From Octopus vulgaris (lineage: Eukaryota), in contig OX597832.1 in the NCBI GenBank assembly GCA_951406725.2, forward strand, positions 16,988,001 to 17,052,000: a DNA stretch of 64,000 bases, in the 5' to 3' direction. The notes under the pieces were generated by a model. The model saw nothing but the letters and a program-made list of their open reading frames with translations, ran no database searches and was not told the DNA's origin. Made by a program: the position numbers and the translations under genes. Positions 4,729 through 55,353 of this stretch are shown here, piece after piece. How positions within the stretch are numbered: the first letter of the stretch is position 1; each line of letters begins with the position of its first letter.

Positions 4729-5239
4729 GATAGATAGACATTATGACACTAATAGAATTTCAACATGGTGAATTTTTCTTTGGCTATATTCAAAACATTT
4801 CATGATATTTTCTAAAACAACAAAGTATATACGTAAAAAAAATGAAAGTATAGATGCATGTGACAGTTCGCCAAAGAAATAGCTTGCATATAGGGGGCGA
4901 TAGTGATTGAGGAGTGACTGGGGAAAAATAGAGATGAAAAAAATATGAAAAACTGAGTGAGATGAATAATACTACAGAGGACGGAATGAGTGAAGAATGA
5001 AGAGTGAAGAGTGAAGAATGAGTAGAACAGAGAAGTAAAGAGGGAAGTAAAATTGAAACGAATATTTTAGAGTGGGAAAGCGTAAGAAATTGATAGAAGA
5101 TTAAGTAATCCTAACACTGATATACGTGTGTGTGTGTCTGTCTGTGTGTCTGTGTGTGCCTGTGTGTGTACGTGTGTATATATAAATATATATGTATATA
5201 CATGTATGTATATAAATACATATATGTACCCATGAGTTC

Positions 5240-5453: not shown

Positions 5454-6180
5454 ATAGATGAACAGATAGAGAGGGTGTGAGAGAGAAAGAAAGATTGAAT
5501 GAATGAATGAATGAAAGAGAGAGAGAATGAAAGAAAGGAAGAAAGAAAGAAAGTAAGAAAGAATGACAGAGGGAGAAATATATTTACGTATAACTGTGCA
5601 AACTTGCATACTTATATGAAGATTTTCTTTTTCTAACATTTTTTTTTTTCTACTGTCTTCCATACTTCGCTACTTCAAATTTGCTACTCTCCTAATTTTC
5701 TTTTTATCTTTTTTACTTCTCACTTCTCCAATTTTCCTTACTTCTTCCATCCTTTATTTTTCTTTTCTTCACCTTTCTCGGTCTACGTATCAAATAATTC
5801 CTATAAAATAATGTCTCTCTTCGCTTACACTACCTTTCAGTATTACAGCCATTTTAAGCACGCATAAGACTAGCCATCACTCCACCACTCACAAGCGTCT
5901 CACTCAACAGTCACATGCATTTACTAGCTTATTTGTTTGTATATTATATTTGCTAGTGTTAGATATATATTTTTTTTTTGCATCACTTTCATAGAATGAT
6001 TAATGGTATATTCAGTTGAAAGTGAAATGTTATTTTGAAAAGCGCCAAAGCGAAACTCGGAGTAAACAACTGATGAAAATTCAGTTCTGCGTTTGATATT
6101 GTTATAGATTTTATATTGAAACCCATCTGAACATGGACATATGGACATACATACACATCTTCACGCATACCTATCACAGA

Positions 6181-13152: not shown

Positions 13153-14012
13153 GGCGTTTCTGATCATGAGCAGGAGTGGTTGGGGAGCATCATAGACATA
13201 TATTGAGAGGAATTCTTTGCGGATTACATAAATGTAACCAAAGTAAAATTCAAAGGGAATATTAGCCATTTTTAATACTTACTTATGGTAAGCAAATAGG
13301 AACGAACAGTTGCTACAGAAATACAAAAATCTTGTTATGCGGTGTAATTCAAGGCAATAATTTCAAAATTGCACAAAGGACACAGAATTGAAAAGGTGAA
13401 CACTCTACGTAAGAGAATTTCAGTGATTAATTGTTAATTGCTTTTACTGACGCTCCAACAAAACCAAAATTGTTCTCAGTGGTTTTTAATTCCGAACATA
13501 AAATGAACATAAAATATATTGACACGTTTTCTTCATCGCTCTACTAAATCTGCTAATCCTCTGTGTACTTGTCTTGTTCTGGAAGTGCTAGCAATGATTC
13601 TTGTTTTTTTCTTTGATATATAAGACACTGAATGATTAATCATTAACCTTTAGGGGATTTCAGTTTTACATGTGACTTCTTTATTTGGAAAACTAACTAA
13701 AACGAAGATTAGGTCGCTTTTAAGACGTCCAGTGATAGCATGGAATTATTACGGCTACGTACACAAACCGGCATACATACATATCTAACAGGCATTCACA
13801 TATAAACAGATACACGTTTGAATATACCACCTGCATATTCACATACTTTTAACCATATAAAAACGTTGGTATACACTTGCACACATATGTGATCATATGC
13901 TTATACACACGAATTAATATATACACTTACAAATGTATACACAACCATGTACATGAATAAATACATACGGGAATATATATTTATTCACCCGAAGATGGTA
14001 AATACATTATCA

Positions 14013-14402
14013 TTTTTACTATAGACACAAGGCTTGAATGTTTGGGGGCGGGTGTCAGTCGATTAGATTGACCATAGTGTTTAACTGCTACTTAATTTAT
14101 CGACGCCGAAAGATTCAAAGGCAAATTCGACCTCGGCGGATTTTGAACTCAGAACGGAGCGATGGGCGAAATACCTATTTCTTTACTACCCACAAGGGGC
14201 TAAACACAGAGGGGACAAACAAGGACAGACAAACGGACTAAGTTGATTATATCGACCCCAGTGCGAAACTGGTACTTAATTTATCGACCCCGAAAGAAGG
14301 ATGAAAGGCAAAGTCGACCTCGGCGGAATTGGAACTCAGAACGAAACGGCAGACGACTAAGCATTTCGCTCGGCGCGCAAACGATTCTGCCAGTTTGTCG
14401 CC
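14013..14402 (-). mobile_element. Chimeric SINE dimer (tail-A unit joined into a tail-B SINE)
   Basis: Junction gaaatacc|tatttc at 14175/14176. The left unit has a different tail (ttttactatagacacaaggcttgaatgtttggggg). Confidence 0.85.
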
Positions 14403-16269
14403 TTTTAAATATCTATTTCTACTCTAGAGATATTGAAGAGTACCCCTGTCAATTGCCGTTTTCTTTTTACGTATCTCCATAACACGGTACCTGTGTACCT
14501 GTGTACCGGAAAGATACTTCAGCGTCCAATGATACGGATTCTATCTTAGAGAGGTACCTAAGTATACCGTACAGATCACTCAGTTATTATCAGTGAAACC
14601 GATCATCTTTAATTGTGGATACCGTACACTTATGTCTCTCTACTAATCTAATGTGCTCTATCGATATATGATCTGAATAACCTCTTACGTTTGAACCATA
14701 TTCACATTGGAACATTCCTTCTGTTATACAGTCCGAAACCGATGAATTGGTATATGAGACTTTTTTACTCTCTATTACTTGGGGGTCAACAAAATGTCTC
14801 TACCCTACATATAAATGTCGGAACAACAGGACTAAACTTTTGGGGTGCGCAAACATGTTCCCAAATCAGCTGTTGGTCAGTGACAATCACTAGTCATTAG
14901 GTGCAGTCATTATTGCTCTTTACATGTAGTACTAGGGACTCAGCAAATGCATCGTGAAAATTCACTGTACCTCTTCATCCAAACCTTTCTTGGGACAGCA
15001 CAGCTATTTTCTCGCCTGATTGCGATGGACGACTTTATGTCAATATTTTGTACTTTTCAAAACTGCGCGCGTGTGCGTACGCTTACAAAATTGTTTTAAT
15101 GAATGAGATTGCTAGGTAAGTGACTTGGCTTCCTAAATGTTCCCAGAATATGTACGTTTATTCTGAATGAGGCTATATGTGTTGGAGAAGAAACACAGAT
15201 TGTACCCACGACTTGGTCTTTAATATATATTATCCGGTCTTTGCCTTAAAACCACCAAAGCAGCTAGAAGTTTGAGCATTACAGTAAGCGGCTGACGCTA
15301 TAGATTTTAGCTATGTTTTGCAGACCAATTCCTCTGTTTCTTTCTATTTGGCCGCCACTTTGTCTGCATATCTTTTTCTCATATACCGGACCAATTCAGT
15401 TTTATATAACGGTGTTCATAACGTGTGCGTGTGTATATGTGTGTGTATGTGCGCGTGTGTATGTGTCTGTTTGTGTGTGCGCTTGCCTGCTTGCAGTTAC
15501 TGTTGGATTTGTTAAAATTCTTGTTAGAATTTTTGAAGTTCATTGTGATAGTAATGCGTTTATCTGTTAATGGTGCTGATGTAATTTGCGATTTTATTAT
15601 TTTTTGCTATCTTCATGTCATTTTGGCGCCTGTGCTTGTTGTGACATTTTTGTTGATATTTTAATTAAAAACTGTTTATTTGTTGTTGAATATGGACATT
15701 GGATTCTTTCTTTTCTGGCTCCTGACTTGAAACTTTTCGTCTCTCTCAGAAAAGAAATTATCTTTCTTTAGTATTCCCCCTTGCTAGAACCAGATCTACA
15801 TGTATTCGTTAAAAAAGTTTAACAATTTTTGTGTTACTACATTCACAGAAATATACTCCAAAGATCACAATCACTTATGAAGAAACACATATATGTACGT
15901 GGATTGTGATACATGGCCTTTATACAAATCATTGTGATACATGGCTTTTCTGCACATTAGATGGTACCAATAAACCTGCGGTCACTTCTACCGAGACATT
16001 TGTAGACAAACACAGGCAACTGACGGTTCAATAACAGTCCCCTTGACCCTCTCTTCAAGATTAATCCAAATTTTCCCTCATCAAATAACTGGCCTATCGT
16101 TGTCTGCACCAAGGAAATGGTCCGAGTTAAAAGTCCCACTCCTTGCAATACGCACGACAGATACTGATTGAAACCAATCAGATATGCTGTAGTTACAACA
16201 TTTCCACATAAACATATACATATTCACATGAGCACATACAAATCAGAATATATACACAAAGAAATTCAC

Positions 16270-16490
16270 GGATCTTTACCTTTTGACCGGCAGATTTAGA
16301 AAATAATTTTTAGTCACTAAACACTTTCAAACTTCGGACACTGGTAGAATGTGTCATATAAAACATTTTTTACTCCTAGCATTTTTGAGAAAAATTTATA
16401 TATGACATATTCTACCAGTATACGAAGTTTGAAAGTGTTTAGTTACAGAAAAATTATTTTCTAAATCTGCCGGTCAAAGGTTAAAGATCC
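16270..16490. mobile_element. MITE, ~100-bp imperfect TIRs starting GGATCTTT, 8-bp TSD
   Basis: ggatctttaccttttgaccggcagatttagaaaataa... / ...ttattttctaaatctgccggtcaaaggttaaagatcc. TSD aaattcac at 16262-16269 and 16491-16498. Confidence 0.9.
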
Positions 16491-16624
16491 AAATTCACTT
16501 AACCCTATTCAGGTCTGAGGAATCAGAAGAAAGCTGGCGTGGATTATAATGAATTGAACATAAAATTACATAACTTATGTCTACACTGTAAATAGTATTG
16601 TCTTCTGTAATTCTACAATTTCAG

Positions 16625-16657
16625 CATACATATATACATACATACACAAACACGTAT

Positions 16658-16709
<52 letters not shown>

Positions 16710-17032
16710 GCATATTCATATATCCAAATATTAATATGTGTAGGAACGTGTTATATGTATGTACATGTATATCTATATTTATATACGTGTCTACATACAT
16801 ATATACATGTGCGTGTGTGTCTGTGAGTATGTGTGTGCGTGTGTACATAGCCATGTGCATGCGTGTTAATATGTGTGTTTCTGTGTGAAAATAGACACAT
16901 ATATTTGCTGTATAGCTGATAAAAAATTTGGCTGACGTGTAATGTTTTAGCTGATTCAGAGACAAGATCAATATCTTTCATAAATATAACATTAAAAAAA
17001 TGATCACAATTAACAAGAATCAAAACCAAAGC

Positions 17033-17091
<59 letters not shown>

Positions 17092-17112
17092 TGTATATAT
17101 ATAGATACATAT

Positions 17113-17159
<47 letters not shown>

Positions 17160-17176
17160 GTGTGTCTATATATATA

Positions 17177-17214
<38 letters not shown>

Positions 17215-17234
17215 TATGTATACATATATATATG

Positions 17235-17314
<80 letters not shown>

Positions 17315-17925
17315 GTCATATATTTCAATAAAATAGATTGTTTCTGTACAAGCGCTTCTTTTCTTTCTTTTCATGTACAAGAACTTTGAGTTAGAGAACC
17401 ATTCGGAACTGTATAGTTATCCCTAAAAGTGTATCATATTTTAGGTATTCAATAACCAAACTGATTTCTCAACACAACTTATCTAATGTCATAGAAAGAA
17501 GAACAATACTTTATATCGAGTAAACAAATCTATTTCCAGTTATCTTTTATTTATATATGTGTTTATTTATATAGATTTATTTATATTGCATTTAACTTCT
17601 TTCTTTATTTATTTTTCTCTCTCTCTCTCTCTGAAAGTACTGTCTACTTAATGTATATCTGAATTTCTATGTAAGTGTATGGAGGACTATAACTATCATA
17701 TAAATAGTATTATCTAAATAGATATATTGGGACATATGTGTGTATACGTATGTCTGACTCTGTGTGCGTGTGTGTGTGCTGTGTACATATGTATACACAC
17801 GTATGTATATATGAATATGTGTATGTATACAGATATATAAACATACACACACACATTCATACATATATATATATATATATATATGTATGTATATATATGT
17901 ATATATATATAAATATATATATACA

Positions 17926-17968
<43 letters not shown>

Positions 17969-18030
17969 ATATATATATACAATATATATATATGTATGTA
18001 TGTACATATATACATATACATATATAGATA
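16625..18030. repeat. (TA)n/(TG)n microsatellite zone
   Basis: Directly visible. Confidence 0.9.
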
Positions 18031-19141
18031 TATTGTTTTAATGAACATGATTATTAATATAAAAATTATCCAATAGAAGTCATCGGTCCTTGTCTTTTGG
18101 AAAAGATAATACTGTATCGGAAACTTTCTATTCTTATTCTACTATATATACAGAGGGAGAGAGAGAGAGGGTAACGAATATTCTCTAATAATAATGGGCT
18201 ACAAGAGGTTGATATTTCTACTGATTTGCATATTGTCAGCTGTTGGCAGATGTACTTTCCACAAAGTTTGCTAAGCAGTGTAAATTGGTGTAAGAACTGG
18301 CATCCTCTACAATCTAAGGAGCGAACTGTCATGAAGAAAATTCCTGTATTAGAAGTTACTTATCTTTACCATCACGGTTGCCCAGCGCAATAAACACCTT
18401 CCTATATATGTCTGTTTGTTATTTGTAGTTACGCACATTTGTCAATGATGTTAGAGGTGATCAAAGTTAGATAGCAATGATGTCTTCTGTCCAAATATCT
18501 AATCATTGAAATATAACGGCTAGTAGAAAATATCAAGTTGTTTTTGCAACACGGAATCTATGATACCCAGCAAAGCCTACCAGCTCTCTGTTATGAAAAA
18601 TATACTATTATGCGAATTCCTTATTATCACACGAATTTAAAGAGATACAGTAAAATATTTCGCCCAACGCACTCACTGCTCTGTCACTTTACTCACTTCA
18701 TTGATTCTACCTAAAGTTGACAAAATAATGCAGATGTTCAATCCACTGCATTGGAGTCTGGTCTTCTTTTATGTATTTGTTCAGTATTAAATGACTCAGA
18801 GAAATATGAACCTGGCTCTTATATTCATTGAAGAATTAATTCCAGCACCATTCATTTGATGTTACCTTACCTTCATGTGTCTCCTCAGTTCTTTGCGGAT
18901 TTATAACAGCAACATTGTGAATACATTTGACCGCCATTAATCTTCAGTTTTGACCAAAACAGATTATTCCCAAAAGAGTACCCAATTCCAAATATTAGGT
19001 TGGTATTTTATTTATTGATGTCTAAAGGAAATGCTGAATTCAGCTAGGTTTGAACGTAGCCCGTAGAGAAGTGAAAAGAATACTGCTCGTGTTATTTTTC
19101 TTTGAGAAGTGGCTAACTTACCTGTCTATTGGTCCACATTG

Positions 19142-19537
19142 TTTTTCTAATTTAGGTACAAGGTCCGAAATTTTGGGGGAAGTGGTGAGCAGTAGATTAG
19201 ATCGACCCTAGTACGCAACTGGTACATAATTTATCGACCCCGAAAGGATAAGAGGCAAAGTCGACCTTGGCGGAATTTGAACTCTGAACGTAAAAATAGA
19301 CAAAATACCTATTTCCTTACTACCCACAATGGGCTAAAAACAGAGAGGACAAACAATGACAGACAAACGGACCAAGCCGATAATATCGACCCCAGTGCGT
19401 AACTGGTACTTATGCAATCGATCCCGAAAGATGAAAGGCAACGTCGACCTCGGCGGAATTTGAACTCAGAACGTAGCGGCAGACGAAATACGGCTACGCA
19501 TTTTGCCCGGCATGTTAACGTTTCTGCCAGCTTACCT
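19142..19537 (-). mobile_element. Chimeric SINE dimer (tail-A unit in tail-B SINE)
   Basis: Junction aaaatacc|tatttc at 19309/19310. Confidence 0.85.
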
Positions 19538-19570
19538 CATTAAAGATAGTATTTACTGAAGGGTCTTTTG

Positions 19571-19952
19571 TTTTCTACTCTAGGCACAATGCCCAAAATT
19601 TTTTAGGGGAGGTCCAGTCGATTAGAACGACTCTAGTATGCAACTGGTACTTAATTTATCGGCCCCAAATGGATGAAAGTCAAAGTCGTCCTCGGTGGAA
19701 TTTGAACTCAGAACGTAGCGGCAGACGAAACACCTATATCGTTACTACTCACAAGGGGCTAAACACAGAGAGGACAAACGGATTAAGTCGATTATATCGA
19801 CCCCAGTGCGTAACTGGTACTTAATTTATCGACCCCGAAAGGATGAAAGGCAAAGTCGACTTCGTCGGAATTTGAACTCAGAACGTAGCGGAAGACGAAA
19901 CAACGCTAAGCATTTCGACCGGCGTTCTAACGATTCTGCCAGCTCGCCGCCT
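19571..19952 (-). mobile_element. Chimeric SINE dimer (tail-A unit in tail-B SINE)
   Basis: Junction gaaacacc|tatatc at 19734/19735. Left tail ttttctactctaggcacaatgcccaaaatttttagggg. Confidence 0.85.
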
Positions 19953-46870: not shown

Positions 46871-46978
46871 AAATTTATTGGTATCAAAGTTTGGCACAAG
46901 GCCACCGATTTCGGGGCGTGGGGTGGATTAGATTGATTGCATCGACCCCCAAGCTTCAAATGGTATTTATTTTATCGC

Positions 46979-47206
46979 GGTGAGCTGGCAGAATCGTTAG
47001 CACGCCGGGCAAAATGCGTAGCCGTATTTCGTCTGCCGTTACGTTCTGAGTTCAAATTCTGCCGAGGTCGACTTTGCCTTTTATCCTTTCGGGGTCGATT
47101 GATTAAGTACCAGTTGCGCACAGGGGTCGATGTAATTGACTTGATCCGTTTGTCTGTCCTTGTTTGTCCTCTCTGTGTTTGGCCCCTTGTGGGTAGTAAA
47201 GAAATA
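46979..47206 (+). mobile_element. Tail-A SINE nested antisense in an older related SINE (host ~46878-47335, minus)
   Basis: TSD ggtatttattttatcgc at 46962-46978 and 47207-47223. Confidence 0.9.
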
Positions 47207-47535
47207 GGTATTTATTTTATCGCCTCAAAAGGCGAAGTCGAACCGGGCGGCATTAGATATCAGAACGTTATGTCGGAGGGAATGCTGTTAAGCATTTGTC
47301 CGGTACAGTAACAATTCTGCCAGCTCGCAGCCCCATTAATGTGTCGTAGTTTTTAGACAAACGTTGTGATGTTGCTGGTGTAGTACAACCTAGAAAATCC
47401 GTGATTGGTTTCGATTCACATACAGAGCAATTTCGTTTTCCCATATTACGTTTATGCTTTTATGAAGGCATAAATATCTCGCTATCCTATTGTGTTACGC
47501 ATATCAAGTTTAAGCCAATTTTTTACGTACATATA

Positions 47536-47903
47536 TATTTCTTTACTACCCACAAGGGGCTAAACACAGAGGGGACACACAAGGACAGACAAAAGGATTA
47601 AGTCGATTACATCGCCGCCAGTTCGTAACTGGTACTTAATTTATCGACCCCGAAAAGATGAAAGGCAAAGTCGACCTCGGCGGAATTTGAACTCGTAACG
47701 TAACGACAGACGAAATACCTATTTCTTTACTACCCACAAGGGGCTAAGCAGAGAGGGGACAAACAAGGACAGACAAAGGGATTAAGTCGATTACATTGAC
47801 CCCAGTGCGTAACTGGTACTTAATTTATCGACCCCGAAAGGATGAAATGCAAAGTCGACCTCGGCGGAATTTGAACTCGGAACGTAACGACAGACAAAAT
47901 ACG
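47536..47903 (-). mobile_element. Two headless 184-bp SINE units (tail type A) downstream of the LINE
   Basis: Units start at 47536 and 47720 (tatttctttactacccacaagggg...gacgaaatacc). They contain a B box (gagttcaaattcc on minus) and a core gactttgcctttcatcctttcggggtcgataaa resembling the Meta/MESC SINE domain. Confidence 0.9.
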
Positions 47904-48150
47904 AATTTCTTTATTGCCCACCGGGGGCCAAACATAGATATGGACAGTACAACTGATGGGATCAGTGAATCGATATGATTTTACATAAATGTGACATCAA
48001 AAATAAAATACAATACATAAAAATCGAATGGAATACACAGTACAAAAACAATACAAATGAAGCGATGATCAAGTTACGCTCCGATCCCACAAGCCCCGAT
48101 CTACCGCTGATACCTTTTTATTTTTCCTTTTTTTTTTTTTCCTCGTCTAT

Positions 48151-48737
48151 TCACACGGTTCCTTGCACGCACAACACTCGTGCAACATACTTCCATCTCT
48201 TTCGGAACGTACACTCTGACAGACACCTCTTCTCCAGCCACAGTTTCCTTTTCAAATGAAAAGAAAAAAAGGATCGTAAATTGTCACCAGAGATAAAGTT
48301 GCCTGTCTTAATTCCTTTTATCCTAGTCTTCCATACTGCCTCTTTTGCTATTGCTACAACCGTGAGAAAACAATTCTTACCTTCGTTCGTTAGAACTCCC
48401 TGTGGGTCAATTTTTATAATTGACTCAGTCGGCAGCCGTACTCTTCCTTCGCCGGACAACAGATGTTCAGCATAAGCCCACATTTCAGTTATCTCCGGAC
48501 ACTGAACAATAGCGTGAGGGACGGTTTCCCTGTCCCCCCCCCGCATCTTGGACAGGTCGGCGACTGACGTTTACCATGTCTTGCGAGCTTATCCCAAACG
48601 GGCAAGGCACCTCTGTAGCATTGCCAGGTTAAGGACTTTTGGAAGTTGTCCAACGTTCTCAACCCGAATGTACGATGAAAGAAGCTGTCCAGTTGAATAA
48701 ATCCGAGACCTAGAGTCGACCCCAGGCCATCGTCGCA
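48151..48737 (-). pseudogene. C-terminal part of LINE ORF2 with CCHC zinc finger, separated by one stop and one frameshift
   Basis: Reading on in frame past the TAA at 48738-48740 gives CDDGLGSTLG...WQCYRGALPVWDKLARHGKRQSPTCPRCGG. A shift in the G-run near 48535-48542 then gives DRETVPHAIVQC...FRKRWKYVARVLCVQGTV*. Together these form the L1-type C-x2-C...H-x4-C knuckle. Confidence 0.85.
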
Positions 48738-51554
48738 TTAAGACTCTACCAACCCACTATATAAAATCCGTGTGGAACCCCCACCGCTGGCGTTGCCCGA
48801 GCGCCGGAACAGCAAGAGGGCCTTACGGCACTCTTTATGCCACTCACTCGACCTCGGTCTACGAGAACACCAGGTTTCCTGTTCGCAAAAACTCTTGAAC
48901 TCAGGGAACATTTGTCTGGCCAGTGGAGACCACACCCGTTCACTATCCAGGAGAATCCAGAGGTGCCTCAACCTCAACGCATGTCTGCGCATCATTAACC
49001 AAGGCATCCCTAAACCTCCATTTAAAGGCTTTTGACAGCAGACAGAGCGTTTCACAAGTGGCGACCTGCCCTTCCACAAAAAGCGAAAGAGCTGTCTCTC
49101 CAACCTGATCAACCACGAATCCGGACAGGGCACGACGGTCAGGCGGTAGGTAATGACCGATGCGATAAACACATTGGCCACTTCCGCCCTCCCTTTCAGG
49201 GATAGCCACCGCCAAGACCAGGTCTTGACTACTGCAGCCACCCTGCTCAATACCTCCGTCCAGTTCTTCTCTATCTGGAGGCCTGGTCCAAACCAGACTC
49301 CCAGCAACTTAACCGGTCCCTCCGTCCAGCGCCTAACAACACTGTCTGAAGGCATCGACTTGCCAACCCAGGTGCCGAGCTGCAAGCCGACCGATTTTTC
49401 CCGGTTAATCTTTGCTCCTGCTACCTCCTCGTAAGCCTCAATAGTCTTACCTACTTCACGTAGGCGTGCCACTGTGGTTACACCGATAGTGATATCATCC
49501 GCGAAAGCCGTAACAAACTCCTCTAGTCCTGGTTCTCTCGGGATGCCACTCAACCTTTGCAGTAATGGCTCGAGAGCCATCACATACAAAAGTGGTGAAA
49601 GCGGACATCCTTGACGAACCGAGCGTCTGATGCAGAACGGCTTCGAAAGGAAACCGTTCACCCGAACTATCGAGTCAATGTTGTGGTACAAAGCGATAAA
49701 CCACCTGAGGAAGCCAAGGCCCAGGCCAAACCGCGCAAGTACAGTCGCTAGGTATCGATGGTCAACCCTATCAAAAGCTTTAGACTGGTCCAAATGCACC
49801 ATTGCCCCACCTTTGCCAGATTTATTACCAAACCTCTCTATGGTATAGCGAATAAGATGGAGGGCATCCTGAATGGTTCTGCCTGGGATGGCACATGTCT
49901 GTGCCTCCCCGACTATACCATTCGCGACACGCGCCAACCTTTTTGCTAGAACCTTGGCCAAAATCTTCACTTCTGCGTTTAACAGAGTGATGGGCCTGAA
50001 ATTCTCTAGAACGTCCCCCTTGTCCGGGTCCTTTCTGACCAACGTCACTACTCCCCGGCGCACAGATCTGGGGATAAACCCATTCTGTTTCCAGTTCGCG
50101 TACACGTCAGTCAGTAGTTGCCCGAACAAGTCTGGCATACATTTATACAGCTCGTACGGAAGACCATCAAGTCCCGGTGACTTACCCGCTTTACAATCGA
50201 CCAAAGCCTCTATCATCTCCTCAGGTGTGATTGGCCCTTCGCAAGACTCCGCATCCGACCCCGAGAGGCACGGCAGCCCGGTAAGAAAGTCCTCGAGGGC
50301 TCTCCCACCACCAGGACCGCCGTCACCCCCGAACAGCTGGGCGAAGTACTCCCGAAAGACCTCACACATTTTCTCGGGTTCGTTTATCAAGACACCATTT
50401 TGATTCGTCAAAGACCGTATAGAGGAACTATTTCCTTGCCGAGCTTCCACCACTCGGGCCCATCCAGCGGCTTTGATTCCTTCACTTCCCATTGCACGTA
50501 ACTTAGCTCTGGTAATACTTCCCATGTGGTGGGCTTCAAGATGCTGGTTTAACTCCAGTCTTTTCACCCTCGCTTGGTCTGTATTACCAGTCCTCCAGGC
50601 TTCTTCTAGTTCCTTAACTAGACCATCTCCTATTTTACGTCCCTTCTTAGCTAAACTTATGCTAAACCTAATAGACTCATATTTGATGGCTCTTTTTAGG
50701 GCGTACCACCATTTGTTATTAATGATGGTACCTGTTAATGCCCTCTGTATTAACATCTTGTTCCGCTTTCTGTACTCCTCAATCGCCAAAAGGGACGTAT
50801 TGAGTTTCCAGTAGCCAGATCCCTGTCTATGCATCTTATCTACCGTCAGTTTACAGGTAACCATATTGTGGTCACTGTAGCTGACTAGAAAAAACTGTGG
50901 ACACTCAACTATGGACTTATCTTTTTCTCTAATTAAAATCCTATCTAGATATGTTCTGGTAGACCCGTCACTATTTGACCACGTCCACTGTGGAGTGTTC
51001 GGGTGCTCCAACCTATATGGATCTGCTAGCTGAAATTGACTTAGCAGATCCCGAAAGCCTGGGTTACATTTTCTGTTCATGTTCGAGTTTGAGCCAACAC
51101 AATCTGTGTGCGCTGCACATATTGTATTAGAGTCTCCTAACACTACTAGTGAATGCGACGTGGCTAGGAACTTCCCTAGGCCACGAAAATATTCAGTTTG
51201 CGGGCCAATAATGTTTGGTGCGTAAATAGCGACCAGCCTGATTGTCTTGCCACAACTGAATGTCAAGTCGAGAACGACCAGCCTGCCTTCTGGGTCAGAA
51301 AAAAACAACTTTTTCTCGGCTACCCGGTTTCTTTTTAGTAGGACCAACACCCCACCCCCACCTCCCGCCCGACTCGGAGAAACGTATTTCTCGTAGCCGT
51401 TCAGGAGGGGGAGCAGATCTCTTGGCCCCTTCACCCGGGTTTCCGTTGCAACAATTACATCCAAATTTCTCGACCTGATGTCATTCAGAAAGCGTCCTTG
51501 CTTCCAGCCTGACAACAGGCCATGAACATTTAAACAACCAATGTGAATAGCCAT
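48738..51554 (-). CDS. LINE ORF2: apurinic-like endonuclease + reverse transcriptase (ends at a premature TAA)
   Basis: APE motifs CLNVHGL, ATETR, VAIYAPN, VLGDSN, YLDRIL, SDHNMV. Tx1/L1-type GYWKLNTSLL. RT motifs KSPGLDGL, NFRPITLLN, DQSKAFDRVDH, SVRQGCPLSPLLY, AFADD, KLLGVWF. ATG at 51554. Confidence 0.95.
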   Translation of the reverse strand: MAIHIGCLNVHGLLSGWKQGRFLNDIRSRNLDVIVATETRVKGPRDLLPLLNGYEKYVSPSRAGGGGGVLVLLKRNRVAEKKLFFSDPEGRLVVLDLTFSCGKTIRLVAIYAPNIIGPQTEYFRGLGKFLATSHSLVVLGDSNTICAAHTDCVGSNSNMNRKCNPGFRDLLSQFQLADPYRLEHPNTPQWTWSNSDGSTRTYLDRILIREKDKSIVECPQFFLVSYSDHNMVTCKLTVDKMHRQGSGYWKLNTSLLAIEEYRKRNKMLIQRALTGTIINNKWWYALKRAIKYESIRFSISLAKKGRKIGDGLVKELEEAWRTGNTDQARVKRLELNQHLEAHHMGSITRAKLRAMGSEGIKAAGWARVVEARQGNSSSIRSLTNQNGVLINEPEKMCEVFREYFAQLFGGDGGPGGGRALEDFLTGLPCLSGSDAESCEGPITPEEMIEALVDCKAGKSPGLDGLPYELYKCMPDLFGQLLTDVYANWKQNGFIPRSVRRGVVTLVRKDPDKGDVLENFRPITLLNAEVKILAKVLAKRLARVANGIVGEAQTCAIPGRTIQDALHLIRYTIERFGNKSGKGGAMVHLDQSKAFDRVDHRYLATVLARFGLGLGFLRWFIALYHNIDSIVRVNGFLSKPFCIRRSVRQGCPLSPLLYVMALEPLLQRLSGIPREPGLEEFVTAFADDITIGVTTVARLREVGKTIEAYEEVAGAKINREKSVGLQLGTWVGKSMPSDSVVRRWTEGPVKLLGVWFGPGLQIEKNWTEVLSRVAAVVKTWSWRWLSLKGRAEVANVFIASVITYRLTVVPCPDSWLIRLERQLFRFLWKGRSPLVKRSVCCQKPLNGGLGMPWLMMRRHALRLRHLWILLDSERVWSPLARQMFPEFKSFCEQETWCSRRPRSSEWHKECRKALLLFRRSGNASGGGSTRILYSGLVES

Positions 51555-51565
51555 CACTTACCTGT

Positions 51566-52813
51566 TTAATTATGATTGTCCGGTGGAGGGGGACCCTCCA
51601 CCTTTTTTTGATCCAGGGTCGGAGGTGGACGGTCTTGGGAAATAGATTTGTCAAAATCCCGTCTCACCACCGACACAGAATTATCAGGTGGAGGGTGAGT
51701 CTCCACCTTTTCCTTTTCTCGCGGGATCGGAGCTGGTAATCCATGAAATATCGACTTGTTAAAATCTAATCTCAATGAAGATACAGTCTTTCTGTACTTA
51801 TTTTGTAGAATTCTATAAGTCTTATTTGAGACTTCATATATGTCGTAATTGATAAATTCCTCTGAAAGGTTATCAACTTTTTTTACAGTCTTTATGAGTT
51901 GAATGTCTCTCATGAGCTCAGTATCTTTAGTGTATACGGCTATTATGCCTTTTTCTTCTTTTTCTCTTCTGGCAGTCTTTTTTGGTCGTTGTTCTGTAGT
52001 AGTCGCCGCTCTCGGCTGGGTTGCTGGTTGTATTTTTCTTTTGTTTGTTGTTTTTTTCCCAGCTGTTTCTTCTTTATCTTCTTCCTCTTTGTCTTTTTTC
52101 TCCTCTTCCTCCTCTTCTTCATTTTCCTTGCAGTTCCTTCGAATGTGTCCTAATTGACCACATAAAAAACATCGAGGTTTTCGGCCCTCAACAAACACCA
52201 CGAGGTTCTCCTCCCCTACCTCAATTGTCTCAGGAATTGTTTGAATTATTTTAGGGTCCGCTTGAATGAGAAGATTAATTGTTTGACCATCCCAGCGTGG
52301 GTTTTCCGTAGCGGTAGCCTGGAGGAGAGTAATTTTTTCTACCTCTTTGATTAGGACTGCCGCCAACAACCACATAGGTTCGACCTCTGGCGGGACCCTT
52401 GTAATTTTTATTCGCGACGTCCTCATCCCCATATAATAGGGTATTAACTCCACGTCGTTCGTTTTCAACGTTTCAACTGAGTTCTTGTGTGCTTTTTCTT
52501 TATTGGTGAACCTTACTTCCACCGTTCCGAATTTTTTCCTCTTCTCAGAAATACTACGTCGCCCAATATTGGCTTTAAGCACTTTTCTATTTTCTCTTCT
52601 GACATTCTTTCAATTTTTCTTTTTTGTAGACAATATGTTTTGAAAATTATTGTTTTTTTGCTTTTCTTCCTGTAATAACTTTTGCGGAGGTTCAGTTTTC
52701 ACACCTTTGTCAGTTATTTCCATCATTTTGCTGTATTTCATAATTTCGCTTTTATTCGTCGACAGTATCTGGGTTCCACCCCCAGCAGCCAACGCAAAAC
52801 ATTTTTTTTCCAT
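51566..52813 (-). CDS. LINE ORF1 (nucleic-acid-binding protein with CCHC zinc knuckle), interrupted by one in-frame TGA
   Basis: CFLCGQLGHIRRNC knuckle followed by an acidic/basic low-complexity region. Track ORFs 52610-52813 and 51566-52582 are in the same frame, separated by TGA at 52610-52612. The true start is uncertain. Confidence 0.8.
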
Positions 52814-53259
52814 TTTTTGGTTCTATCTGGATGCTAGGCACATCAATTATTCTCTTCGACACAATGCCTTTGTTCTCTGGCAAAGTCGGAAACTCTTCTG
52901 GTGAAAGTTCTGACGAGCTCTCAGACACATCTCCAAAAATATCAAATATATTATCGTCTCTGCTATTCCTTCTTGTAGCGGGGAAACCCCTATTTCCTTG
53001 TCTGTAGTTGGATCCTCGCCGGACATGTATTTCCTCCTCTCAACAGGAGAAACAAGTATTTCTGCTCCAACAGTAGGCTCCATGCTAGACGACATTCTTC
53101 CCCCCAAAGGGGGAATGAACAACGCGTGCTACCACAAGCACTAAGTGTTTTCAATTGAAAACTCCAACAGTTAAGTTATTCAACAGTTTAACAAGAAACA
53201 ACAGTTGTTAACAATATTAACACCACGAAACAGCAAGTCTTACTTCACGAACACATGTG

Positions 53260-53322
53260 CGACAGACAAAATACGGCAACGCATTTCGCCCGGCGTGCTA
53301 ACGTTTCTGCCAGCTCGCCGCC
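53260..53322 (-). mobile_element. Displaced 5' head of the SINE interrupted by the LINE
   Basis: Minus strand ggcggcgagctggcagaaacgttagcacgccgggcgaaatgcgttgccgtattttgtctgtcg matches the heads of intact copies at 28412 and 39612. Confidence 0.9.
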
Positions 53323-55353
53323 TCATTTACATTTTCCTCAGTATTTTCATATTCCTATTATTTCAAAAATGAAACAGCACAGAGTACACATGAAAATTCC
53401 GAGCCCATAGCCTATTTTATTATTCCATATTATTCTATGAATGATGTCAGAGAAGTAATAAAGAGTACCATATTATGTCCTAGGCGTATATGCCTTGTCA
53501 TGCTTCCTTTCACTTCATTTTTGCTCTTCTTGTGTGTTCAGATCTCCTTACAATGTAATTCTTATAAATGTTTCTCACTAACAATTCAAACTATGCAGAT
53601 TTAATTTATTCCTCATTTATTTTAATGAAAACAAATGGATGTTAGCACACCCACTCTCTTTATAAGTTGCAGAGATTTTGTGCTTAGTTAATCTAACATT
53701 AATGCGTTAGTTTTGAGTTGTTGTTGTTGTTTTTTTCTGTAAGCGTTCAGGAACGAAACAGAGGTAGTTGTTTGAAGTTTACAAATCAGACATATTCGTT
53801 ATTGAGTCGTTATTCTTAATAACATGCATATAATGATTAAATGTCAAATGTTTAGCAAAATACGAATCGCAAAATTCTACTGTGTCCCCGATAATCACTG
53901 AGATATTTTACAAAATTAAGTGTAAAGATTGATAATTTATTTAGGAATATTGGCTGTGAAGCAGGTTTCAGAATTGATAATTTTTTTGGCGTACTGTGAA
54001 ACGCATGACTGGTAACACGTGATGAGAAATGTAATTGCTAACAAGTCTTAATTAATGTGTGACGCAAACATACATTTCAAAAAGTGTGTCACCAGTGAGA
54101 AATAGTTTGTAAACCTCGAAATGAAAAAAAGAAATAAATACAATTTGTTAATTCATATGACTGTATCGTTGATCTGCAATTCTGTGTGTTATATCTAATG
54201 CACAGTTGGGCGAACTTTGTGAGAATGAATAACTAGACACACATTATCGATATCCATTTGGTGATGTCTATTGAGATGTAGATTGATCTTTTGTGTTTCT
54301 TTGCTTTTTATTTCGTTGAATGAACGCATTTCTTGATTGGTAGCCATTCCGTCCGTTTGCTTCTTCGTTTTTATTCAACTAATACCTTTAGATTTCACTG
54401 ATAGTTTATTCCTTTCACTGGTAATATTACAAAGGCGCTGTCGACTACTCAAATATCACCAGATTCCTCAAAATCACCACGCTATTAAAAGTACTACCAT
54501 CGTTATAAAAACCGCCTTCACCACCATAACAACTACCGCTGCCAGCACCAGCTACATCTCTCCCGAAATGTAACGTCAATAACATTGAACTGGCACATGT
54601 GACTTAGATTTTCGTTACTATCCTTCGGCAGTTTATACACGCGCAAACACTTTTGCCTGAAGTGTAAATATAAGGAAAACTATTCAAAGTAACTTCTATT
54701 GCAGAAGCTTTCCCATCGTGCTATCGCACTCCCCTGTAGTATACACAATGCCCTGAAGCTAGAGTTCGCAAAAAGACATTTTTGTACATCACCAATTTTA
54801 AAATAAGCTTCAACACGACAGTGGTGAAGATAAAGAGGAATGAAAGCGAAAGAAAATGAGCGAAAATGCACTTTACAAGGTTCTGTATAATTTCATTATT
54901 CTTCTAACTAGGGCGTTGGCATGATATCAAATAGCATAAGAAAATCAAATTGAATGGCTTCTTTGGATATAAAGTTGCGCTTCTTAACACACTGTGTTCA
55001 AATTTTACTGAGGACGTGGAGGACAAGCAATAACCATTGATAATGGAGGTTCTGCGAGATTTCGTTATACTATACTAAGTCGATATTCATTCTGTGATCT
55101 ATAAAGTAAATACAAGTTTTGAACTGGAATCACTGTGATCGAGTGAAGTCCATATGAAATTGAATTGACTTCTGCTTTCGAAAGGAAATAATTGGATTGG
55201 CAAAATAGGTGGAGCGTAGGAATAAAAAATTGCCTTACGTTTTATGCATTGAGGTTTCAAATTCTGCCAAGATCAAATTTCATTTTCCACCTTTCATGGT
55301 TTATAAAAAATCAAATACGTGCATCGATTAATTAGTGAACCCATTCCCTTAAA

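What the first reader, a model, noticed from the sequence alone, without database searches (positions are those of the whole stretch)
14013..19952. Tail-swap chimeras: tail-A SINE takes over the promoter of a related tail-B SINE
Seen: in three dimers (14013-14402, 19142-19537, 19571-19952) the downstream unit has a different tail (...ccccaaaatttcgggccttgtgcctagagtagaaaa type). The unit attached to the head has the LINE-like tail A. The reverse order is never seen here. Units with different tails cannot come from simple tandem duplication, which supports insertion. Inference: tail-A elements convert rival SINE subfamilies into tail-A transcription units. This would be a directional mechanism for SINE module shuffling and competition.
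Basis: partly seen in the sequence, partly recalled or inferred. Interest (0 to 1): 0.72.

Follow-up and report, generated by a model that had tools for sequence, protein, structure and literature searches.

The report
SINE inserting into its older relatives
In this animal genome a young short retrotransposon (the tail-A SINE) sits directly in front of the headless body of its older relatives thousands of times and almost never behind them, likely because a partner LINE cuts one fixed site inside the SINE head, and the incoming copy likely overwrites the older head more often than it borrows it.

Summary
The three dimers are real (head-core-tailA-core-tailB, minus strand). The one-way order holds genome-wide: 2,495 A-then-B against 8 B-then-A exact matches; 11 against 0 in a 1.4-Mb fixed-position sample. 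The B halves form no dimer family (star tree) and are about twice as diverged as the A halves, so they look like pre-existing hosts. A young L1-group LINE with a tail-A-like 3' end sits at the same site (SINE position 49/50) with a ~16-nt duplication in 20 of 20 other full-length copies examined. The rest carry the incoming A head, and the B-box always comes from A. The order follows family age and 3'-end microhomology; nothing shows competition. Closest known: crocodilian Tx1-Mar/SINEU shared targeting and R2-type homologous 5' joining. Here the target is the SINE family itself. The scan noted looser LINE-in-SINE nesting in two other genomes.

The parts
14357..14403 (-). D1 head (SINE pos 1-45, short deletion near pos 46-52; T20)
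14176..14356 (-). D1 first unit: A-type core and tail A
14010..14175 (-). D1 second unit: headless core from pos 49/50 and B2-type tail
19491..19540 (-). D2 head with the A-specific G44/C49 variant and A20 (5' end degenerate)
19310..19490 (-). D2 first unit: A-type core and tail A
19143..19309 (-). D2 second unit: headless B-type core and B1-like tail
19903..19952 (-). D3 head (T20)
   Evidence: a head at the orthologous place in contigs of a relative about 8% diverged (runs X9, X16)
19735..19902 (-). D3 first unit: A-type core and tail A with a 10-nt deletion; private G52 shared with the second unit
19569..19734 (-). D3 second unit: headless B1 core and tail
53276..53323 (-). Host SINE head (pos 1-48) left upstream of the LINE insertion
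53260..53275 (-). 5' copy of the 16-nt target duplication (SINE pos 49-64)
   Evidence: read from the sequence
47904..53259 (-). Young full-length L1-group (Tx1-like) LINE: ORF1 with a CCHC knuckle, ORF2 with APE endonuclease and RT (stop at about 48738 in this copy), 3' end like tail A'
47888..47903 (-). 3' copy of the 16-nt target duplication
47536..47887 (-). Rest of the host: core-tailA-core-tailA array

Best explanation
These dimers are headless older tail-B SINE bodies with a younger tail-A unit in front, and they likely arose locus by locus when the tail-A SINE, likely mobilised by an L1-group LINE that cuts SINE position 49/50, inserted into an older copy and its cDNA likely joined the homologous host head instead of leaving a second head. 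Shown: the junction is at one site; LINE copies occupy the same site with a ~16-nt duplication and leave the host head upstream; B halves are unrelated to each other and older than their A halves; about a third of dimer heads are B-type and about two thirds A-type. Inferred: (1) the LINE protein nicks at GC(G/C)|GTATTT and the A RNA, whose 3' end matches that site, primes reverse transcription; (2) the cDNA either anneals within the staggered cut, keeping the host head, or runs to the RNA 5' end and invades the host head, overwriting it (R2-like); (3) the polarity arises because A is youngest and only its 3' end matches this site, while B and C were largely inactive by then. The result is head-(core-tailA)n-core-tailX arrays.
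For: Order 2,495:8. 35 of 79 complete A tails in the 1.4-Mb sample join a SINE at pos ~50, against 360 GGTATTT and 7,034 GGTA sites available. 20 of 20 full-length LINE copies examined (20 pairs taken from the 40 best 3' and 40 best 5' hits) have a SINE head upstream and the target duplication; 19 of 20 have the SINE body downstream; flanks differ. The hosts diverge 4.7% (head) and 5.6% (core) while the LINE 5' ends show 0 mismatches in 820 nt, so the hosts pre-existed. The 5' copy of the duplication reads T at pos 62 where the 3' copy reads C in 13 of 18 readable pairs, so 5' joining uses element-borne target-like sequence. B halves (53 dimers, 34 B1 monomers): 23 label changes against 27 shuffled, minimum pairwise distance 7%, Mantel r 0.13, p 0.14. 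Non-CpG divergence B half 0.064 against A half 0.044 (p 0.003, n 53); in 20 further dimers with pure A heads, 0.067 against 0.031, head 0.034 (p 0.003). Dimers lie in CpG-richer flanks than monomers (o/e 0.91 against 0.77 and 0.72, p about 0.002), as if the state of the locus matters for a second event. The unresolved form head + duplication + head exists: 141 exact matches. Outer TSDs were found in 23 of 52 A..B1 arrays; by eye most start with the AT-rich B-type end.
Against: B halves in dimers have lost fewer CpGs than B1 monomers (0.24 against 0.46), which also fits a younger insertion date; the flank-CpG explanation is indirect. Outer-TSD mismatch in dimers (0.095, 0.065-0.135) matches B1 monomers (0.095) but overlaps A monomers (0.065, 0.015-0.100), so it does not decide. 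Host-private bases at pos 51-61 recur in the first unit in only 6 of 54 cases (shuffled 1.7), and a similar excess at pos 81-126 (25 of 263 against 9.8) shows this signal is not specific. The LINE found carries the A'-type end and sat in C49 hosts in 20 of 20 cases, whereas the dimers' junction is the G49 form, so the exact partner of the main A subfamily was not identified. The mixture estimates assume that the A copies entering B have the genome-wide variant mix.
Confidence: 0.66

Rival explanations
1. RNA template switching: reverse transcription starts on a tail-B RNA, reaches pos ~50, jumps to the 3' end of an A RNA through the GGUAUUU match and inserts the chimera at a new site.
For: Explains A-type heads, B-type outer TSDs, polyphyly of the B halves and the one-way order. 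Template switching is the mechanism usually proposed for SINE module exchange (PMC4824008, PMC4758252; passages read). B halves keep CpGs nearly as well as A halves.
Against: Does not explain the 29-39% B-type heads, the head + duplication + head form, the LINE insertions with a target duplication at the same site, or the flank-CpG bias. It needs the much older B2 and C tails to be primed while A was active.
Confidence: 0.14
2. Second-generation copies: full-length A inserts into B, transcription from the A head reads through into the B body, and the dimer RNA is retrotransposed from its B tail from many source loci.
For: Source-type loci exist (141 exact matches; L234 and L228). It gives pure A heads and B-type outer TSDs.
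Against: No sibling dimers: minimum B-half distance 7%, no A/B linkage. Source-type loci are rare against 30,336 exact junctions. It does not give B-type heads.
Confidence: 0.1
3. One reading: A always resolves inside the 16-nt duplication, keeps the B head and so converts rival B elements into A transcription units.
For: Fits about a third of dimers and D3. Among T20 A-B2 dimers the first unit is mostly A-type already at pos 62-65 (by eye, first 100 rows).
Against: G44/C49 is five times commoner in dimer heads than in B1 monomers (297/908 against 68/1,008; Fisher p 1e-49). First-unit pos 62 is A-type in 50 of 56 A..B1 arrays while the last unit is B-type in 38 of 59. The B-box comes from A. 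No expression data were examined.
Confidence: 0.06
4. DNA-level events only (unequal crossing-over or gene conversion between dispersed copies, local tandem duplication).
For: Some arrays share private mutations between units (L204, L057, L031; L279), so local duplication or conversion does occur.
Against: It cannot give a fixed non-homologous tail-to-pos-50 junction with strict polarity, nor LINE insertions with duplications at that site.
Confidence: 0.04

Closest known systems
Crocodilian Tx1-Mar LINEs and SINEU (Kojima 2015, PMC4494074; passages and section 16 read)
   Same: A Tx1-type LINE and its SINE share a preferred site inside a repeat; tandem SINE insertions arise by sequential insertion and are not a subfamily.
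   Different: There the target is another transposon (Mariner-N4_AMi) and tandem copies keep a TSD between them. Here the target is the SINE family's own head, and the junction is usually seamless with one head.
R2 (and R1) 5' joining through target sequence carried on the element RNA (PMC6895275; passages read)
   Same: cDNA pairs with upstream target DNA by strand invasion or recombination when the RNA carries target-like sequence, as inferred here from altered 5' duplications and A-type heads.
   Different: R2 is an RLE element in rDNA with little or no duplication. Here an APE LINE with a ~16-nt stagger and a non-autonomous SINE are involved, and the overwritten DNA is a related SINE head.
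SINE module exchange by template switching or non-allelic recombination (PMC4824008, PMC4758252; passages read)
   Same: Related SINEs with a common head and core and different LINE-derived tails; chimeras between them.
   Different: The chimeras here seem to form on genomic DNA by targeted insertion at one site, in thousands of independent events.
SINE-derived satellites of squamates (PMC10702118; passages read)
   Same: Tandem arrays of a partial SINE unit bounded by SINE ends.
   Different: Attributed there mainly to unequal recombination. Arrays here mix subfamilies in age order at a LINE target site.
Octopus OR1/OR2 CORE-SINEs (Ohshima and Okada 1994; not read, only cited in PMC4824008 and PMC4758252)
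   Different: No reference sequence was available, so identity was not tested.

Membership tests
tRNA-derived SINE | Internal Pol III A and B boxes in a tRNA-like head | tested here: inconclusive
   A-box-like (pos ~12-23) and B-box-like (pos ~74-85) motifs are visible (box consensus recalled). ARAGORN found 0 genes in the window and Rfam gave no match on a monomer.
tRNA-derived SINE | 3' tail shared with a LINE | tested here: met
   Tail A aligns with the LINE 3' end, score 62 against a shuffled maximum of 46. No LINE was found for tails B or C among 5 and 6 coreless hits.
tRNA-derived SINE | Dispersed high-copy non-coding element with TSDs | tested here: met
   327 cores in 1.4 Mb; TSD in 20 of 49 A monomers against 1% shuffled.
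Amplified dimeric SINE family | Second halves descend from one or a few dimer masters (clade, shared mutations, linkage with the first half) | tested here: not met
   Star tree, 23 against 27 label changes, minimum distance 7%, Mantel p 0.14 (53 dimers only).
Tx1-clade LINE | L1-group ORF2 with APE endonuclease and RT | tested here: met
   Pfam Exo_endo_phos and RVT_1; best solved relative human L1 ORF2p E 2e-62, R2 only 4e-19.
Tx1-clade LINE | RT phylogeny grouping with named Tx1 families | not tested
   The 18 homologues returned carry no informative names; no reference Tx1 sequences were available.
Tx1-clade LINE | Target specificity (same repeat in more than 20% of flanks, criterion of PMC4494074) | tested here: met
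   20 of 20 full-length copies examined, plus the window copy, sit at SINE pos 49/50; only the youngest full-length copies were sampled.
Tx1-Mar/SINEU-type system | LINE and SINE share a target site | tested here: met
Tx1-Mar/SINEU-type system | Target is an unrelated transposon and tandem copies keep a TSD between full elements | tested here: not met
   The target is the SINE's own head; the two-head form has 141 exact matches against 30,336 tail-core junctions (patterns differ in length, so the ratio is rough).
Octopus OR1/OR2 CORE-SINE | Homology to the CORE domain and to the published consensus | not testable with these tools
   No SINE library is held; the resemblance is recalled.

The most novel reading that the evidence does not exclude
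A self-homing SINE/LINE pair: the LINE endonuclease targets a site between the A and B boxes of its own SINE, nested SINE copies give transcripts whose 3' ends carry the target sequence, and each new insertion overwrites the head of an older relative, so that young subfamilies convert old loci in place across tens of thousands of sites; loss of the A unit afterwards would leave A-head/B-tail monomers, a DNA-level route to SINE module shuffling.
Probability: 0.45. Interest if true: 0.72.

Novelty: new variant of a known kind. Interest (0 to 1): 0.56.

Why it matters
SINE head/tail shuffling is usually ascribed to RNA template switching, with few intermediates to test. This genome holds tens of thousands of junctions at one site, a very young LINE that marks the same site, and subfamily markers that show where the 5' join was made. 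That makes 5'-junction formation of an APE LINE, and the origin of chimeric SINEs, countable. It also warns that 'dimeric families' and SINE ages in such genomes can be mosaics of different insertion dates.

Tried and rejected
Empty-site test with public runs: contigs of four runs broke inside the SINE; a relative about 8% diverged holds a head at the D3 site and two closer ones hold the D2 B tail, but presence or absence of the A unit could not be read. No relatives are held as genomes. Outer-TSD dating: trend toward B1 age, intervals overlap A. Host-private bases in the duplication: excess not specific to pos 51-61. Divergence gradient along the head: intermediate values, too few sites. ARAGORN and Rfam gave nothing. 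The repeat finder was swamped by microsatellites. The protein search gave no named Tx1 relative. A single amplified dimer family and simple tandem duplication were rejected as the origin of A-B dimers. Literature searches found no description of a LINE or SINE targeting its own SINE head; Repbase Reports and the 1994 octopus paper are outside the library, and no supplements were opened, so prior description cannot be excluded.
Full report
Setting. The window is G000:C19:16988001-17052000 of a 2.8-Gb genome in 227 contigs, with no relatives held. The repeat resembles octopus SINEs, but that is recalled and was not tested. From copies in the window and in 140 fixed-position 10-kb samples (1.4 Mb) I built profiles of a head (pos 1-50), a core (51-166) and three tails, A, B and C, later split into A/A' and B1/B2 by one tail base each.

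Observation. The three dimers are as described: head, core, tail A, headless core, tail B, all on the minus strand. In the sample, 327 cores gave upstream-to-downstream counts A>A 33, A>B 13, A>C 1, B>B 3, B>C 2, B>A 0. With the second core starting within 8 nt of pos 51, A/A'>B is 11 and B>A is 0. Whole-genome exact patterns gave 2,495 A..B1 against 8 B1..A; by eye those 8 are mostly a B tail followed by a head fragment or other sequence, not by a headless core at pos 50. The tail-to-core junction occurs 30,336 times for A and 12 times for B1, with 15,668 B1 tail ends available.

Age explains the direction. Non-CpG divergence of monomer cores is A 0.039 (n 44), A' 0.047 (22), B1 0.080 (34), B2 0.113 (22), C 0.139 (58) (random and targeted loci pooled; the random-only values keep the same order). 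Arrays nearly always put the younger class upstream; exceptions in all held loci are A'>A 4 and B2>B1 1. Of 79 complete A tails in the sample, 35 join another SINE at pos ~50. A', B1 and B2 tails join SINEs less often (8 of 32, 2 of 24, 4 of 28) and partly at other positions where their own 3' ends match. A tails that do not end on a SINE are followed by GGT in 18 of 33 cases, so the A 3' end or its endonuclease favours that sequence.

A LINE marks the same site. The window holds a 5.36-kb element (53259-47904, minus strand) with a CCHC ORF1 and an APE/RT ORF2 closest to human L1 ORF2p among solved structures. Its 3' end aligns with tail A, not tail B. It lies between a SINE head and a SINE body with a 16-nt duplication of pos 49-64. 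The 40 best hits to its 3' end are 98-100% identical and those to its 5' end 95-100%. I paired 20 full-length copies from these lists and read both ends: 20 of 20 have a SINE head upstream and the duplication, 19 of 20 have the SINE body downstream, and the outer flanks differ. The hosts diverge 4.7% and 5.6% while the LINE 5' ends have 0 mismatches in 820 nt, so these are insertions into existing genomic SINEs. All 20 hosts have C49 and 19 have G44. At pos 62 the 5' copy of the duplication reads T where the 3' copy reads C in 13 of 18 readable pairs; I infer that the LINE RNA starts with SINE-like sequence and joins by homology.

The dimers are not a family. For 53 A..B1 arrays and 34 B1 monomers the B units give a star tree (23 label changes, 27 shuffled), a minimum pairwise distance of 7% and no significant A/B linkage (Mantel r 0.13, p 0.14). 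B halves are more diverged than A halves (0.064 against 0.044, p 0.003) and not distinguishable from B1 monomers (p 0.29). In 20 more dimers chosen for an A-specific head, the head and A core are young (0.034, 0.031) and the B core old (0.067; p 0.003). Against this reading, B halves lost fewer CpGs than B1 monomers (0.24 against 0.46). However, CpG loss in B1 monomers tracks flank CpG content (rho -0.76), and dimers lie in CpG-richer flanks (0.91 against 0.77 and 0.72; p about 0.002), which fits insertion into copies in unmethylated regions (inferred). Outer-TSD dating pointed the same way but did not decide.

Whose head? The variant G44/C49 is in 12,106 of 24,409 A units, 68 of 1,008 B1 monomers and 297 of 908 dimers ending in B1: 39% host heads (32-47). 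T20 is in 840 of 3,677 A monomers, 2,303 of 2,486 B2 monomers and 109 of 254 A-B2 dimers: 29% (20-38). At pos 62, inside the duplication, first units are A-type in 50 of 56 arrays while last units are B-type in 38 of 59. These are exact-match counts, biased to well-kept copies, and they assume an average mix of A donors. The similar shares at pos 20 and pos 44/49 (from different host classes) suggest two classes rather than a gradient: host head kept with a switch near the site, or head replaced nearly whole. A two-head form also exists (141 exact matches). Among the finding's three, D2 has the A-specific head, D3 repeats a private G52 in both units as a host-derived duplication would, and D1 is unresolved.

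Mechanism. Most likely (0.66) an L1-group endonuclease nicks at pos 49/50, the A RNA primes there through its matching 3' end, and the cDNA is resolved against the homologous host head, either within the stagger or by invading the whole head. Template switching (0.14) and re-retrotransposition of read-through dimers (0.10) explain A heads but not B heads, the LINE insertions or the flank bias. An attempt to read orthologous sites from public runs failed because contigs break in the repeat.

Known relatives. In crocodilians, Tx1-Mar LINEs and SINEU share a target in a Mariner element and form tandem insertions (PMC4494074; passages and one section read). R2 joins its 5' end by pairing cDNA with upstream target when the RNA carries target sequence (PMC6895275; passages). 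SINE tail exchange is usually ascribed to template switching (PMC4824008, PMC4758252; passages). My searches found no case in which the target is the SINE's own head; Repbase Reports are not in the library. Tx1 membership by phylogeny was not tested. The scan's earlier notes hold two looser LINE-in-SINE cases in other genomes, unchecked here.

Verdict. Observation confirmed and general; interpretation partly supported. It is a new variant of target-specific LINE/SINE retrotransposition, with self-targeting and frequent head replacement; competition is not shown. Interest 0.56.

Noticed in passing
window 47904-53259 (-), and L314-L353: A very young L1-group LINE family that sits at one site of the SINE in all 20 other full-length copies read, always in the C49 head variant; a target-specific LINE whose target is a SINE.
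   Followed up: yes
L035:640-682, L042:4541-4590 and 5081-5128, L071:4325-4375 and 5474-5523, L170:4105-4147, L090:6535-6574, L059:2239-2290: A second element end with a tail-A-like 3' segment and a shared upstream motif (8 of 10 coreless tail-A hits); 6 of the 8 are followed by (TATC)n, suggesting a related microsatellite-targeting LINE.
   Followed up: no
L281-L305 (68 genome-wide): Monomers with the A-specific head, mostly an A-type core start, and a B1 tail: true head/tail recombinants, possibly dimers that lost the A unit by recombination between the two cores.
   Followed up: partly
L084, L101, L148, L173, L235 (A' tails); L048, L135, L247 (B tails): A' and B tails also join the next SINE head-to-tail, at pos ~16-20 where their own 3' ends match, so microhomology-guided nesting is not limited to tail A or to pos 50.
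   Followed up: partly
L204:8273-8940, L057:4261-4690, L122-L125: Arrays whose units share private mutations, pointing to local tandem duplication after the first nested insertion.
   Followed up: no
window 46977-47213 (+): A tail-A monomer with a 17-nt TSD beginning GGTATTT, inserted into the opposite strand of an older SINE.
   Followed up: no
34 B1 monomers: CpG loss in B1 copies is spread from 0 to 7 of 8 sites and tracks flank CpG content (rho -0.76), a possible record of mosaic germline methylation.
   Followed up: partly
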